Part shown: piece after piece, positions 23,901 through 29,900 of the stretch
Position numbering within the stretch: position 1 is the first letter of the stretch
Layout: each line of letters opens with the position of its first letter
Assembly: GCA_977030845.1 (NCBI GenBank)
Contig: OZ365113.1
Coordinates: forward strand, 30,566,001 to 30,630,000
Direction of reading: 5' to 3'
Source of the DNA: Fimbriosthenelais zetlandica
Taxonomy: Eukaryota
Length of the DNA stretch: 64,000 nucleotides
Made by a program: the position numbers

Positions 23901-26900
23901 CAGTCTTGAACATAACTGTATTTTCAACGATGATTACCGGAAAATCTGTGTATGAGTCAGTGGTGGAATTATGAAATACCACAGCTGTAAAAAATAACAT
24001 AGATTCCCATAGGTTTTACGGTGTTCGTCGTAATAATTGTAATGCATTTTTAAGAATGAGTGCATAAATATTAGCTTGTAATGTCAAAGAATAAGTGTAT
24101 GTGTGTGAACTATACAGGCTAAAGTTTTTGTCACTCAATCAAAACTGTATATAATAAGTCGAAACTGGTCGTTGCCTAGAAACATTTTTCCTGGTATGAA
24201 TTTTTTTGAATGTGAGATATTTGCATTAGATTCAGTAGTTCTTGTTCCGTGAAATCTTTTCTCAGTCCCTAAATACTCGATCTGTATGTCATGAAATTGC
24301 CATGTAAATTGTATAGGTGACTGATGTAAATAAAGTTTTGTACGAACGTTGAACATCAATTTTTTGTGCCTCTTAATACGAATATAATTTCCCCTTTAAT
24401 CAATGCGAACTCTACAGGGCGATGCATTTTGTGCGGGCTTTTCTTTGCTGTATAAACACCAAAGACCCAATTGTATTAATATATTATACTTGCCTTTATC
24501 CATAACATCCTAGACTAGGTCTGCCCAAGAGTTGAGGCCAAAATCCATATAGCCTAGGCCAATAATTATTGCTACAATTATTTTTTGATTGATCATGAGC
24601 ACCATTTTCATGATTTTTAAATAGGCTACCAGTGAAGCTTATTGATCTGCGTACTTTTATAATTTATCTATTGACTTTTTCTCATTCCGGTTTGCCCAAG
24701 TGTTGACTATGTTAAGTATTAAAGATTAAAGAGCTTTCCTCCCATCAAAAGACACCAAGCCGAGAAGTTAGCAAGCAAAGGGAGGCTTCTCAGCGGGTTG
24801 CTATACGAGAGCTTGCTGCGGGAAACGCCTACACATAGAGGTCGCCCTTTGTGAAGTCCAAACTGTGGTCGCAGATTGGAGAGGTGCGAAAACACTCAAA
24901 GGGAGGGCAGAGACGTGATTTTAACACATGCGCCTCTTGAAACCTAGCTGGAATTGTGGGGGGAAGCGGAGGTGCGAACGCAGCGACTCGTTGATTACCA
25001 TTACACAATGTGTTAAGGTTAAGTTGAATGTCCTTTACTTACTAGGGGGTGACGTGGTTAACATGATTAACACACCAAATAATAAATATAATTAGCAAAA
25101 TGATATATTATGCCCCCACTGATGACGTTTTATTATTCATTTTATTGATGCTTTTCCTTATTTTTCTATGCTATGTTCAATAAATAATTTTATTTATCCC
25201 TCAGCAAAGCAGATGGAAGATGTTATATCTTCTGTTGGAAAGATGTAGGCCGTGGTCCATTTTGCTACGAAATACGAGGTGAAAAAAAATATTGATTTGA
25301 CAATTATATATATCGCAGCATCAAATTGCAGGTAAGTCTCGCTTTATTAAATTTACTTTGACACATATATCCAATACTATTTTTACCCATTTAATATATT
25401 TTCTAAAACCCCACTGCCCCCCTTGAAAAACGGACAGCCCCATGTTCAGCTCATTCAATGGACAGGTGTGAAAAGCGCTCGACAAGAAGAAGCGCGAACA
25501 TTGGTCGTGAATGTCGTCTGCCTATAGACGAAGCAATTCACACGAAGGTGTTAACGCGCCAACCTGGATAAAAAGCGGGGCTACAGGTAGCTAGACATCA
25601 TTCACCAGCTCGGCATTCATACAATACACAACTACCATACAGACAGCATTTATAACCACAGCTTCAAGTGTTTCTTACTTGGATTTCTACCAAAAGAAAC
25701 ATACCTGGATTACAATATTTCTAACGATATACTTTGAAACACATTTGATTTCTACAGGTGGTCAAAACTAATTCTATTGGACAACAATATTGATTAACAT
25801 CAAGTGCCAAATTCTACATTATACGCATCCAAATAGGAACTATATTTGAACTTGATTTTGTGCCAACATTTGTTGAGGATTCTTTTCAAAATGACTGAAG
25901 GAAAGAAACAGTGTAGCCCTCGACCAGCAAGAGGAGGTATGGAGGGGACCGGGGTGGGAGGGGCGAGCTCCCCCGAGTCCACCTATACCGAGGTCACGGA
26001 AAGCTCCCTGGTCATTGATGACTCCACTTCCCCCTCATCCTCCCTCTCCTCTTCCCCATTCACTTCCCCAGAAAACAGCAGATCCGCCACGCCCGATCAG
26101 ACCAACAGTGAAGAAGAAATAACTGACGGTAAGTTAAACATATTTTTATATATCATGGAACCAATTAACAATGTTAGGCTAGCCCACGGAAAAACATCAT
26201 GTCCCGAGCTGATTCGGTGAAAATCATATAGACAACATTTTTTATTTGTGTGTACCTTCCCCATTGTATTTTAAGATATAATTTATTTCTAATTAACTTT
26301 TCACTTTATTTGCTTATATTTTATCGATAATTTTTCTGTAATTCATTTTCCCTATCTTGTCATTACAGATGCCAAATCTCTCACCTTAGACACAATGCAT
26401 GCAGCTGCTGTGGACCAGTCCATTTCTAAAACTAAGGGCGGCAGGTTCCTAATTAATCCAGCCCAATTAGCAGCTTTGAATCAGTTACATTCCCAAGTCA
26501 GCCACCCCTCACGCCAGCAATTAGACCAGCTCTCCAAGGAAACTCAACTTTCTGTGAAATCAGTCAAGGTATGCATCCATTAATCTCATCCTCTTTATAA
26601 CAATTATTCTTTTACAATCTATCAGAATAATTATATATAATAGGCCTATATATAATTCTAATAGGCCTTTATACTATAATTAGGCCTAACCTGTAAATAA
26701 TTAGGCCTATAAGTATTTAGGAATACAGAGTGAAACTGACCAAGACTCTCCAATGGCCGATTTTCACTGAAACATATAGCATTTAAGACTCATTTTATTA
26801 AATATTTTCCTTTTCTTATTTCAGCAATGGTTCCAGAACAAACGATCCAAGTGCCGCAAGATGCCCAGAGATGAAAAGCCATGCATCCAGACAGTTAGCA

Positions 26901-29900
26901 ACAATTTGATTGGTAAAGCTTGTCACCGACTGGCCACCAAAGACTCTGCAACAGTTACCGTAAAGCAGGAAAAAACCGAGAAAGCTTCTGAGAAGCGACC
27001 TCAACTGGAAGCAGCGCAGGAAGAGGGAACATCCTACCAGCCCATGACTCAGGTCTCTCTGCCCCCAGACCATCCCTTCTGCCAGCTTTTTGGTCAACAA
27101 ATCAACAAGGCAAAATGTGGAACCCGCGCCTGTCGTCGCCAAAATATTCGCGCTTCTATTGAAAATGCCACAAGCACGCCCATAGCACGTCCAGTTGCTG
27201 CACGTCAGCAAGGCAAAGGTGAACGACGTCGGCAACGTCAGCGTCTCATGACGTCACAACCGCAGACGATAACGTCACAGCAGCAGACTATGGCGTCACA
27301 GCAGCAGACGATGGCGTCACAGCAGCAGACAGCATCTCCAATTGTAATCAGGCCCAAACCACAGACTCCAGATCCACAGACGACATCAGCAATTTGGCGA
27401 CCGATGGCCTTGCCAACAAGCACATCTGAGACTGCACCAAAACGCTCCGAATCACCACTCGACCTCTCTGTCACCTTGAAGAGGAAACGCGAAGAGGCCC
27501 ATAAACCGGAAGTAGAACCAATGATCAAAAGGTCACCACTGGAGCCTGTAGGCGGCGCTATGATACATCCTCTTGCTTATCCAGGTGCTGGATATTATGG
27601 ACAAATCGGACAAACCCTCATACCTACAGTGATTCCTCACATACCATACCCCATGGCACCCCTCGCTTTATACGGACAGTCCCATCACCACCTCTGGGCA
27701 TCAGGATTACCTCGGTTTGCTTGTGCCCCTGGCAGCGCCATGTGAACAGAAATTCAACATTTGTTACATATTTTTTATCTTGTTTTTGCCTGTTGAACAG
27801 ATCTTGAGCAGTGTTATGGACTGGAGTAGGCACACTGCATCAAAATGGTCGTTCAATTTTTATCAGAATAATTCAATTTTTCGCCGAATTTTCGGGATAA
27901 ATGAATGAACTGTCGCTTACATGAATTAATTTATTGTGATTGAATAGGCCTACAGCATGCGAATATAATTTTGTAATGTAATGCCATCGTTTTTTGGTAC
28001 AAATATTGAAGGAGTCCCTAATTTATAAACTCCCGAATCTTTGGCTTAGAATTATTGTGATGCTATAATTATTTTTCGGTGTAATATGGATATTCGCCTT
28101 GTGTATTATGTAAATAGTTAATTATTAGTAATATATTAGTCACATATATCTAGAACGAATATGTTTATTTGTGGCAAGGTTTTGTTATACCTGTTATGAC
28201 TTTGTTATAATACGGAATGTCTTCATACAACTTTCTAAATAAAATTTTAATTCCAAATTAAATCCTTTGTCATTTATTCTATGGGTTGGCCTCTTTCCCG
28301 CCAAATGTTATCCTAAAATATTATTTCCTTGGCCTTTCTGGTCACACCACCTTTTCTTGAACAACCGATTGTTAAACTCAAACGTTACCTGACCAATCAG
28401 GTGCGAACCTCAAAAGTACCTCAGTGGTCAGTCACTATATATTAGGAGAGTTGTAAGCCTTGTAGGATCACTCTCATCAAGGGCAGCAAAGGAGAACCTC
28501 CTTTCTGCCACCTCACGTCGCTGATCCCAAGATGGGAGTCATTACCATTGGCCCAAGGCAACCTTTATTATTGTAAGTTCGACTTTTATGTCTTCACAAT
28601 CATTGGATAATATTGTTATCATTCAAACATACTGGGTACAATTCATATCAAACAGTCATGTCGGGTTTCTGAAATTGAATCGGAGCCAATAAGGAGTTTG
28701 TCCGTCAGTTACATGTACGTTCCTACCCCTTTCTATAATTATACACCACTTATACAGCCACTTAGAGTGAATACATTTAATTAATAGCATTATTTTGATA
28801 ATTAATTTTCTGGTTTCATGAAGTTGTGCACTAATTGGGTGAATACACTGTATGTAAGTTTAATACATTTACCGCACCACTAAATGTTTCTGAATAAGTT
28901 AACACTGTTACAGCATACAATACAACATTGACCATCGTTATATGACCTGAGTTATTTCCAGTGCTGGTTTCATTATATTAGTAGGCCTACTGTACGTAAA
29001 TCCCGAGATTCTGATCTTACCAATATGAATATAATTCACAACAGCTATAAATGAATCGCAAATGATGATATCAAGTAGAAATGAACAGATCATTTTTTTA
29101 TCTGCCACTTGATTCTAATCCCGGCAAGGCAATGTCAAGTACATGCTTGATACTTGGTATAACATGATCTGCCAAAGGATCAAGCTCTTGGACGCGGCCC
29201 ACCCCTGACAGAACCCCAACCGTAGCTCCAAGCTGAGCCGACCTTCCCATTCCCAGATCTGCTGTAGTGTCCCCAATCATAATAGCATGTGCTGGATCGA
29301 CTTTCAACTCAGAACAGATTGTCAAAGCATTTTTTGCTGCTGGTTTAGGAACAGATCCTTTGTCATCACCACAAACGATGGCGTCCACATAGTCAAGGAG
29401 ATCAAGGTGCTGTAGGAAATCTTCAGTCGAAGCTCTGTTATCAGCGGTGCACACGGCCACCTTGATCCCATTGTCCTTCAAAATCCTGAACAAACTCAAT
29501 GGGTTATCCACCTGCTTAAAGCCAAGCTTGTTGTTTTTGCTGGATTTCGTCCAGCTCCGGTGGATGATGTCCTGAGCTTGGTCAGGATGGATGCCATGTT
29601 TCTGTAGGATCTGGGAAACCTTGGTCTGAATTTGCGTATCAGTGCCCTCGGCGAATAAGCCAGACTTCCAGGACTTAGTTTCGTTACAGTATCCCAACTC
29701 TCTGAGGATGTCAGAACGCAAATTCAAACCTGAGACACGCTCAAGACTGAAAAAAATATCCATCGAAAACAGATTAGATCGGTTAAAAACATGAGATAAA
29801 TTGACTTTCGTGCTTTACACAATTAAACGACATGTACTTACTCGCTAATAATACGATCCATCCAAGGTGACCATAGTGTGTTGAAGCATAGCAGCGTCCC

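What the first reader, a model, noticed from the sequence alone, without database searches (positions are those of the whole stretch)
25891..27745. Orphan-like divergent homeobox gene
Seen: the recognition helix is intact (WFQNKR, Q50), but normally conserved positions are replaced (F8>I, F20>H, Y25>H, R31>L). I cannot assign it to any classical family. Established: a 46/47 intron is typical of PRD-class genes, and lineage-specific, fast-evolving homeobox genes are often expressed in early embryos. Inference: this is a lineage-restricted transcription factor, possibly an undescribed family. It has its own candidate TATA/Inr and an AT-rich 3' UTR (AATAAA at 28238).
Basis: partly seen in the sequence, partly recalled or inferred. 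Interest (0 to 1): 0.65.

Follow-up and report, generated by a model that had tools for sequence, protein, structure and literature searches.

The report
Divergent single-copy homeobox gene
This is an intact three-exon gene for an unusually diverged homeodomain transcription factor, probably a repressor, which is a common kind of find in animal genomes and could not be placed in a family here.

Summary
On the + strand, 25891-27745 carries a three-exon open reading frame of 452 codons with GT-AG introns. Exons are 47-57% G+C and introns 28%. Exon 2 alone passes Pfam's Homeodomain cut-off (E=6.1e-6). Exon 3 opens with QWFQNKRSKCRK, so the homeobox is split at position 46/47. I add Q47, S44 and V42.

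The class stays unresolved. PDB sequence and fold searches gave only insignificant hits, led by a ZFHX3/ATBF1 homeodomain and then NANOG. ESM Atlas neighbours are homeodomain clusters, all below 0.8. I found no LIM, zinc-finger, paired or OAR domain. None of seven Paired-like cooperativity residues is kept.

The tail is low-complexity and holds one exact PLDLS motif, the CtBP-binding type. I read the gene as a monomeric Q50 homeodomain repressor; that function is inferred, not shown.

The TATA/Inr and AATAAA signals are no better than chance. The contig is not human-like. Interest is modest.

The parts
25891..26128 (+). Exon 1 (start codon at 25891; 79 codons plus the first base of a split codon). 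It encodes an acidic Ser/Pro-rich N-terminus.
   Evidence: Translation. Donor GTAAGT at 26129 and 56.7% G+C against 39% upstream and 28% in the intron. This is the least certain exon: its codon-usage score is only second of six frames, and a 12-nt low-complexity repeat lies at 26022-26069. No Pfam family matched.
26129..26368 (+). Intron 1 (phase 1, GT-AG, 240 nt).
   Evidence: 28.3% G+C and in-frame stops on read-through.
26369..26568 (+). Exon 2. The in-frame part, 26371-26568, is 66 aa and holds homeodomain positions 1-46.
   Evidence: Translation. Pfam PF00046 at E=6.1e-6 and 26.4 bits, above the 22.9 cut-off. Best codon-usage frame of six. The AlphaFold2 single-sequence model has helices at residues 30-42 and 48-58, which are homeodomain positions 10-22 and 28-38.
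26431..26568 (+). Homeobox, 5' part (homeodomain positions 1-46: N-terminal arm with R5, helix 1, helix 2, start of helix 3).
   Evidence: Ungapped match of residues 24-66 to Pfam profile positions 3-45. Numbering is anchored on W48 in exon 3.
26569..26824 (+). Intron 2 (phase 0, GT-AG, 256 nt), splitting the homeodomain between positions 46 and 47. It holds four TAGGCCT palindromes about 20 nt apart.
   Evidence: 28.1% G+C, and a stop four codons past the donor on read-through. The AG at 26823-26824 gives the in-frame junction that restores the homeodomain. TAGGCCT sites are listed.
26825..27745 (+). Exon 3 (306 codons plus TGA): end of the homeodomain and a long low-complexity tail.
   Evidence: Translation. 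The surrounding frame is 321 codons from stop to stop, sixth longest of 7702. Best codon-usage frame of six. No Pfam family above cut-off and no PDB sequence hit at E<=10. AlphaFold2 mean pLDDT is 45.6 with no confident fold; residues 2-11 are helical.
26825..26866 (+). Homeobox, 3' part (homeodomain positions 47-60: Q47 W48 F49 Q50 N51 K52 R53 S54 K55 C56 R57 K58 M59 P60).
   Evidence: It is the only helix-3 signature in the six-frame translation of the window.
26960..26971 (+). VKQE, which fits the SUMO-site pattern psi-K-x-E. The pattern is recalled from memory.
   Evidence: Regex hit. No further test was made.
27248..27330 (+). In-frame 21-nt tandem repeat, 4.0 copies, encoding M(A/T)SQQQT-type heptads.
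   Evidence: Tandem Repeats Finder: 88% matches, score 124. Translation.
27455..27469 (+). PLDLS, an exact match to the CtBP-binding motif type, followed by KRKR at 27479-27490.
   Evidence: Regex. It is the only PLDLS in 127,996 six-frame residues of the window. [quoted passage not shown]
28238..28243 (+). Candidate poly(A) signal AATAAA, 493 nt past the stop codon.
   Evidence: It is the first A[AT]TAAA after the stop, and the next is at 28257. The hexamer occurs about once per kb on this strand, so this is weak evidence.

Best explanation
This is an intact, single-copy, three-exon gene for a 452-residue transcription factor with one strongly diverged 60-residue homeodomain.

Shown:
- The exon-intron structure.
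- The homeodomain, with R5, L16, W48, F49, Q50, N51 and R53 in place.
- The 46/47 intron.
- The absence of any second known domain.

Inferred:
- The domain still folds as a three-helix homeodomain and reads a TAAT-like core as a monomer through R5, Q50 and N51.
- Affinity is probably lower and specificity altered. Three of five phosphate-contact positions (Y25, R31, R44) are H, L and S. Position 47 is Q, where I recall I or V as usual. The core residue F20 is H.
- The disordered tail recruits the CtBP co-repressor through its PLDLS motif, so the protein acts as a repressor.
- In evolution it is a fast-evolving or lineage-restricted offshoot of the R5/Q50 group of classes (ANTP, PRD-like, LIM, ZF). 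Which class is unresolved.
For: - Gene structure: GT-AG introns, fitting phases, stops in both introns, and a 47-57% against 28% G+C contrast between exons and introns.
- Coding: the exon 3 frame is the sixth longest of 7702. The annotated frame is best of six for exons 2 and 3.
- Homeodomain: Pfam PF00046 is above cut-off on exon 2 alone. The unique WFQNKR follows directly at the start of exon 3. AlphaFold2 puts helices where helix 1 and helix 2 belong. In the fold search, 17 of 24 hits are homeodomains by my reading of their descriptions. All ten best named Atlas hits for exon 2 share the Homeodomain family or its clan.
- R5 with Q50 is the combination of the ANTP, PRD-like, LIM and ZF classes in Drosophila (PMC4901127 Table 1).
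- Roles of N51, R5, Y25, R31, R44, R53 and R57 in DNA contact come from passages of PMC12102336.
- Monomer reading: 0 of 7 Paired-like cooperativity residues (K1, R2, N4, T23, V28, E32, E42) are kept. Here they are T, K, G, V, R, D and V. In ALX4, V28R and E42A abolish cooperativity.
- Repressor reading: there is one exact PLDLS in a tail without a confident fold. The motif's role is stated in the abstract of PMC2749851.
- Single copy in the window.
Against: - I obtained no relatives, no transcripts and no measure of selection. Expression and constraint are therefore unshown.
- H20 replaces one of four core signature residues and might destabilise the fold. The exon 2 model is only moderately confident: mean pLDDT 59.9, and 70-78 over the helices.
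- Two of five backbone contacts are kept, and the N-terminal arm has only K2 and R5. DNA binding may be weak or lost.
- PLDLS is a five-residue motif. CtBP binding was not tested, and no CtBP sequence was at hand.
- Exon 1 is weakly supported. No promoter element stands above chance.
- No PDB or fold hit is statistically significant. The best sequence hit has E=0.39, and 0 of 24 fold hits reach E<=0.001.
Confidence: 0.55

Rival explanations
1. It is a diverged member of an already described homeobox family, which full database searches and a tree would place. Candidates are a ZF-class (Zfhx-derived) single-homeodomain gene, a PRD-like family, or a lineage-specific family already listed in a genome survey.
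For: - The best sequence and fold hits are both the third ATBF1/ZFHX3 homeodomain, sharing I8, P10, Q12, L13, L16, P26, R28, L31 and D32.
- Four of the top seven fold hits are ZF-class homeodomains: ATBF1 twice, ZHX2 and ZHX1.
- An Atlas neighbour of exon 3 is an arthropod cluster named "zinc finger protein 2-like", with Homeodomain in all members, at score 0.78.
- The 46/47 intron points to the PRD class.
- Surveys routinely list such genes. In oyster, 31 of 136 homeobox genes fall outside ancient families, and several are marked family n.d..
Against: - All these matches are insignificant: E 0.39-1.6, Atlas scores below 0.8.
- There are no zinc fingers, by a C2H2 pattern in six frames of the window and by Pfam on the three exons.
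- 0 of 7 Paired-like residues are kept.
Confidence: 0.3
2. It is a homeodomain that no longer binds DNA and acts only as a protein-binding cofactor, as HOPX does. It would still bring CtBP to partners.
For: - Core F20 is H. Backbone contacts Y25, R31 and R44 are H, L and S. Position 47 is Q. The basic N-terminal arm is reduced to K2 and R5.
- HOPX is a divergent homeodomain with a 46/47 intron that lacks DNA binding (PMC2211742 passage).
- An Atlas neighbour of exon 2 is a cluster named "Homeodomain-only protein", at 0.77.
Against: - All base-contacting residues are kept: R5, Q50 and N51. W48, F49, R53, K55 and R57 are also kept.
- There is no insertion in the domain, since the Pfam match is ungapped. 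The same passage says HOPX has one.
Confidence: 0.12
3. It is not a working gene: either a recently decaying copy or a chance gene model that is never transcribed.
For: - No expression data are available.
- No promoter or poly(A) element stands above chance.
- Exon 1 is weakly supported.
- Several near-invariant positions are changed.
Against: - The 452 codons have no stop or frameshift across three exons with good splice sites.
- The G+C contrast between exons and introns is sharp.
- The Pfam match is above cut-off.
- The DNA-reading residues are kept.
- The introns rule out a processed pseudogene.
Confidence: 0.06

Closest known systems
ZFHX3/ATBF1 third homeodomain (PDB 2da3), ZF class
   Same: It is the top hit in both the sequence search (E=0.39, 15 identities in 42 aligned residues by my count from the printed alignment) and the fold search (37% identity). 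It shares I8, L31 and D32, which are among the positions that look odd here.
   Different: The matches are not significant. ZFHX proteins are giant multi-zinc-finger, multi-homeodomain proteins. This gene has one homeodomain, and no C2H2 pattern occurs in the window. H20 here aligns with Y there.
NANOG homeodomain (PDB 2kt0, 2vi6), ANTP/NKL
   Same: These are the second and third sequence hits (E 1.0 and 1.3). Helix 2 and the start of helix 3 are similar: LS-K-VK before WFQN.
   Different: The hits are insignificant. A passage of PMC2211742 gives NANOG's homeobox intron as 44/45. Here it is 46/47.
Divergent PRD-class genes placed partly by intron position (LEUTX, HOPX)
   Same: Both have a 46/47 intron and an unusual residue at a conserved position. 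LEUTX has L at position 20, and HOPX is very divergent (PMC2211742 passages). They are fast-evolving and hard to place.
   Different: The authors state that those genes keep the residues invariant in human PRD-class homeodomains. Here 0 of 7 Paired-like cooperativity residues are kept. They are mammalian genes, and no homology was shown.
Lineage-specific "novel" homeobox genes of invertebrate genome surveys (for example oyster Cgi_Hbx and Cgi_ZF, family n.d.)
   Same: It is the same kind of object: a homeodomain too diverged for a family assignment.
   Different: The organism of this window is unknown.
CtBP-dependent homeodomain repressors (ZEB, TGIF)
   Same: They combine a homeodomain with a PLDLS-type motif. 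The ZEB and TGIF interactions with CtBP come from titles and abstracts listed.
   Different: ZEB has zinc-finger clusters. I recall TGIF as a TALE homeodomain with three extra residues. Neither feature is present here. This is a likeness in how it may work, not membership.

Membership tests
Homeodomain superfamily (Pfam PF00046) | Profile match above the curated cut-off | tested here: met
   Exon 2 alone scores 26.4 bits against a cut-off of 22.9, E=6.1e-6, profile positions 3-45 of 57, ungapped. The joined domain was not scanned.
Homeodomain superfamily (Pfam PF00046) | Recognition-helix signature W48, F49, N51, R53, and R5 in the N-terminal arm | tested here: met
   QWFQNKR at the start of exon 3, and R at position 5. 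The importance of these positions is stated in PMC4901127 section 5.
Homeodomain superfamily (Pfam PF00046) | Hydrophobic core signature L16 and F20 | tested here: not met
   L16 is present, but position 20 is H. PMC4901127 allows substitutions with similar residues, and H is not one. Membership still stands on the profile match.
PRD / PRD-like class | Intron between homeodomain positions 46 and 47 | tested here: met
   Exon 2 ends at K46 and exon 3 starts at Q47. [quoted passage not shown] Homeobox introns occur at over 20 positions (PMC2828406), so this is suggestive only.
PRD / PRD-like class | Residues largely conserved in Paired-like homeodomains (K1, R2, N4, T23, V28, E32, E42) | tested here: not met
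   Here they are T1, K2, G4, V23, R28, D32 and V42, so 0 of 7 match. The list of residues invariant in human PRD-class domains is in a supplementary file of PMC2211742 that I could not open.
PRD / PRD-like class | Accessory paired domain, OAR or eh1 motif (present in many members, not all) | tested here: not met
   No such Pfam family at E<=10 in any of the three exons. No eh1-like pattern.
LIM class | Two LIM domains N-terminal to the homeodomain (PMC2211742 passage) | tested here: not met
   No LIM pattern in six frames of the window. No Pfam LIM in the exons, nor in 10 of the 11 upstream + strand ORFs of 60 aa or more.
ZF class (Zfhx, Zeb, Zhx) | Zinc fingers together with one or more homeodomains | tested here: not met
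   No C2H2 pattern in six frames of the window, and no zinc-finger family in the three exons or in 10 of the 11 upstream + strand ORFs. The homeodomain's best hits are ZF-class but insignificant.
TALE superclass | [quoted passage not shown] | tested here: not met
   Ungapped 43-residue match to 43 profile positions. Q50 is not the G, I or A of TALE classes.
POU, CUT, SIX, PROS, CERS, HNF classes | Class-specific second domain and class-typical residue at position 50 | tested here: not met
   No second Pfam domain. R5 with Q50 does not fit these classes in PMC4901127 Table 1.
Any named homeobox gene family (HomeoDB sense) | Supported grouping in a homeodomain tree, and orthologues in other species | not testable with these tools
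No tree was built.
CtBP-recruiting repressors (a functional group, not a homology family) | PxDLS-type motif in an accessible region | tested here: met
   PLDLS at 27455-27469, the only one in 127,996 six-frame residues. It lies in a region without a confident fold.
CtBP-recruiting repressors (a functional group, not a homology family) | Physical binding to CtBP and CtBP-dependent repression | not testable with these tools

The most novel reading that the evidence does not exclude
The gene founds, or belongs to, a homeobox family not yet described. Its homeodomain would combine a PRD-type 46/47 intron with ZF/LIM-like residues (I8, L31). It has histidine at the core position 20, has lost most phosphate contacts, and works as a monomeric CtBP-dependent repressor restricted to one animal lineage.
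Probability: 0.25. Interest if true: 0.45.

Novelty: new member of a known kind. Interest (0 to 1): 0.3.

Why it matters
If the gene is expressed and lineage-restricted, it would be one more case of a new transcription factor born by radical divergence of a homeobox gene. This class is linked in oyster and mammals to early or late development (abstracts of PMC5322547 and PMC4904359).

Histidine at core position 20, together with the loss of three phosphate contacts, makes it a natural test of how far a homeodomain can drift and still fold and bind DNA.

Such orphan homeobox genes are common: 31 of 136 in oyster. The find is therefore useful for annotation rather than surprising.

Tried and rejected
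- **Upstream LIM, zinc-finger or paired exons.** These would make it a known multi-domain class. LIM and C2H2 patterns gave nothing in six frames. I scanned 10 of the 11 + strand ORFs of 60 aa or more between 18663 and 25890 and found no family above cut-off. The only row was Peptidase_S76 at E=0.085, 13.7 bits against a cut-off of 27. ORF 22421-22624 was left out.
- **Paralogues in the window.** tblastn and blastn found only the gene itself. Other hits had E>=2.5.
- **PDB sequence search of exon 3.** 0 hits at E<=10.
- **Rfam and tRNA scans, as clues to the organism.** 0 and 0. The organism stays unknown.
- **Peptide strings of the homeodomain in paper full text.** 0 papers.
- **Intron positions of LIM-class genes.** PMC2828406 gives no 46/47 statement.
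- **Hesx1/Anf idea.** I recalled that human HESX1 lies in the same chromosome band as SLMAP. I dropped it: there is no eh1 motif, no HESX1 structure appeared among the hits, and the SLMAP label is itself unverified.
- **Groucho motifs (eh1, WRPW/Y) and the Hox hexapeptide.** None found.
- **Fold of exon 3.** No confident domain, mean pLDDT 45.6. It was folded as a single sequence, so this is weak evidence of disorder.
- **Complex prediction.** Not used, because no CtBP sequence was at hand.

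
Full report
**What is there.**
On the + strand, an ATG at 25891 opens a frame that runs through three exons to TGA at 27743-27745:
- Exon 1, 25891-26128.
- Exon 2, 26369-26568.
- Exon 3, 26825-27745.

Both introns are GT-AG. The first donor is GTAAGT, and the second acceptor follows a long pyrimidine tract. Phases fit: 238 + 200 nt make 146 codons, then 306 codons, giving 452 residues. Reading through either intron meets stop codons.

Exons are 56.7, 46.5 and 52.0% G+C. The introns are 28.3 and 28.1%, and the flanks are 39% and 30%. 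The frame around exon 3 is 321 codons from stop to stop, the sixth longest of 7702 in the window. Of the five longer frames, three that I scanned carry Pfam domains: EamA, DDE_Tnp_4 and YqaJ. The other two are 57-64% identical paralogues of the EamA-like one.

A codon-usage score was trained on 1837 codons of neighbouring genes. It ranks the annotated frame first of six for exons 2 and 3, but second for exon 1. Exon 1 is therefore the least secure part. An in-frame Met in exon 2 would be the fallback start.

**The homeodomain.**
The joined protein was not translated, scanned or folded as one piece, so every score below is for part of the domain.

Exon 2 alone passes Pfam's Homeodomain cut-off: E=6.1e-6, 26.4 bits against 22.9. 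Residues 24-66 align without a gap to profile positions 3-45 of 57. Exon 3 begins QWFQNKRSKCRK. This is the only W[FY]xNx[RK] string in the six-frame translation of all 64 kb.

- I8, H20, H25 and L31 are changed.
- R5, L16, W48, F49, Q50, N51 and R53 are kept.
- The intron lies between positions 46 and 47.

I add that position 47 is Q, where I recall I or V as usual. S44 and V42 replace the usual R and E, and the N-terminal arm holds only K2 and R5.

A single-sequence AlphaFold2 model of exon 2 has helices at residues 30-42 and 48-58. These are homeodomain positions 10-22 and 28-38, with pLDDT 72-78 there and a mean of 59.9.

**How unusual it is.**
Bürglin and Affolter name L16, F20, W48 and F49 as the core signature that "seemed to be essentially invariant", replaceable by similar residues (PMC4901127, section 5 read). 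Histidine at position 20 is outside that.

In the ALX4 crystal structure, N51 reads the base, R5 lies in the minor groove, and Y25, R31, R44, R53 and R57 hold the backbone (PMC12102336, passages). This domain keeps N51, R5, R53 and R57, and has H, L and S at positions 25, 31 and 44.

A phmmer search of exon 2 against 177,635 distinct PDB sequences gave 1 hit at E<=1 and 3 at E<=10:
- The ATBF1/ZFHX3 homeodomain 2da3, E=0.39.
- Human NANOG, E=1.0.
- Mouse NANOG, E=1.3.

I expected a typical homeodomain to find many more, but I ran no control for that.

**Class.**
R5 with Q50 fits the ANTP, PRD-like, LIM and ZF classes. It does not fit POU, CUT, SIX, PROS, CERS or TALE (Table 1 of PMC4901127). 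Taking the candidates in turn:
- TALE is also excluded by the ungapped profile match.
- LIM and ZF classes need LIM domains or zinc fingers. Neither pattern occurs in any frame of the window. Pfam finds nothing in the three exons, nor in 10 of the 11 upstream + strand ORFs of 60 aa or more.
[quoted passage not shown] Homeobox introns occur at more than 20 positions (PMC2828406, passage).
- Seven residues are said to be largely conserved in Paired-like proteins and needed for cooperative binding (K1, R2, N4, T23, V28, E32, E42). None is kept here. In ALX4, V28R and E42A abolish cooperativity, and this domain has R28 and V42.
- There is no OAR, paired domain or eh1 motif.

The Foldseek search of the exon 2 model gave 24 hits at E<=10 and none at E<=0.001. 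By their descriptions, 17 are homeodomains. The top two are the third and first ATBF1 homeodomains, and 4 of the top 7 are ZF-class. This search also uses sequence, so it is not independent.

ESM Atlas neighbours of exon 2 are homeodomain clusters at 0.79, 0.77 and 0.77: a double-homeobox cluster, a "Homeodomain-only protein" cluster and a nematode cluster. The neighbours of exon 3 are tails of homeodomain proteins at 0.79-0.76, with a recognition score of 1643, below the 2300 mark. All are below the 0.9 level at which the tool says a hit is more than a lead.

In sum, there is a weak and consistent lean towards ZF-class homeodomains, an intron typical of the PRD class, and no assignment.

**The rest of the protein and the likely mechanism.**
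Exon 1 is acidic and rich in Ser and Pro. Exon 3 is rich in Q, P, A and T and has a net charge of +21. Exon 3 carries:
- An in-frame 21-nt repeat of 4.0 copies.
- A VKQE string and a KRKR string.
- One exact PLDLS at 27455-27469, the only one in 127,996 six-frame residues.

It has no PDB sequence match and no confident fold (mean pLDDT 45.6, single sequence).

CtBP works through DNA-binding repressors that carry PLDLS-like motifs (abstract of PMC2749851). My best reading is a monomeric Q50 homeodomain protein that binds a TAAT-like site with reduced backbone contacts and brings CtBP to repress transcription. The gene structure and the domain are shown. Folding, DNA binding, CtBP binding and expression are inferred.

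**Signals.**
No TATAAA lies within 600 nt upstream. The nearest TATA-like string is TATATTTG at 25841. By eye I saw no good initiator match in the 50 nt before the ATG. AATAAA at 28238 is the first such hexamer after the stop, but the strand carries 63 in 64 kb. These signals neither support nor weaken the gene.

**Surroundings.**
- Upstream, + strand: coiled-coil exons run to about 18662. I could not verify the SLMAP label. Pfam gave only sub-threshold coiled-coil families, and PDB gave only chance coiled-coil hits.
- Between those exons, - strand: a GST_N exon.
- Downstream, - strand and convergent with the homeobox gene: a HAD-hydrolase gene ends at 29101.
- Further on: three intronless EamA-like paralogues, transposon-like ORFs, and a stretch that aligns weakly to the N-terminal region of B-raf (E=0.007).
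- No copy of the homeobox gene occurs elsewhere in the window.

I do not take the contig for human. Its B-raf-like stretch and its homeodomain match human proteins only distantly.

**What stayed unchecked.**
I have no relatives, no tree, no synteny in other species and no dN/dS.
Additional file 6 of PMC2211742, which lists the residues invariant in PRD-class domains, bears on the PRD test.
- The claim "undescribed family" therefore rests untested. My only search bearing on whether it is in print was for peptide strings in paper text, which found 0 papers.

**Verdict.**
Orphan homeobox genes are frequent: 31 of 136 in oyster fall outside ancient families, and several have no assignable family (abstract and table passage of PMC5322547). 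I rate this as a new member of a known kind, of modest interest.

Noticed in passing
window 26641-26709, 27945-27952 and 30 other matches across the window: The palindromic heptamer TAGGCCT occurs 39 times counting both strands, against 5.3 expected; 0 of 100 shuffles reach 39. Four sites lie about 20 nt apart inside intron 2 of the homeobox gene and one lies in its 3' flank. Tandem Repeats Finder called no array there. It could be a dispersed repeat end or a binding-site cluster.
   Followed up: partly
window 29101-31369, - strand: The HAD-hydrolase gene appears to hold two HAD units in tandem. One open frame (29841-30266) contains the end of one unit and a second FDKDGT-type start. The two units are 41 of 94 residues identical over the aligned part. 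It is either a two-domain fusion or two adjacent paralogues.
   Followed up: partly
window 35061-36329 (-), 37365-38576 (+), 39342-40613 (-): Three intronless ORFs of 404-424 codons in alternating orientation are 57-64% identical to each other. The one scanned matches Pfam EamA at 34.9 bits. This is a local expansion of a membrane-transporter-like gene.
   Followed up: partly
window 15158-16230, - strand: A GST_N exon (E=2e-17) lies on the opposite strand between coiled-coil exons of the + strand gene (1392-1766, 17892-18662). It looks like a gene nested in an intron. The GDAP1-like label is my recollection only.
   Followed up: partly
window 44462-46204 (+), 48723-49820 (-), 51334-51633 (-): Transposon-like ORFs. 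One is a YqaJ-type exonuclease ORF (E=2.7e-22), preceded by a Cys/His-rich ORF that looks SWIM-like to my eye. Another is a Harbinger-type DDE_Tnp_4 transposase (E=7.9e-42), with an ORF nearby that looks THAP-like to my eye. The SWIM and THAP labels were not scanned.
   Followed up: partly
window 63196-63630, + strand: An ORF aligns weakly (E=0.007) to human B-raf residues 76-173, ending in the LPNxQxTVV start of the Ras-binding domain. A RAF-family kinase gene probably starts near the end of the window.
   Followed up: partly
Pfam gave only sub-threshold coiled-coil families, and PDB gave only chance coiled-coil matches such as SSO1 at E=0.048.
   Followed up: partly
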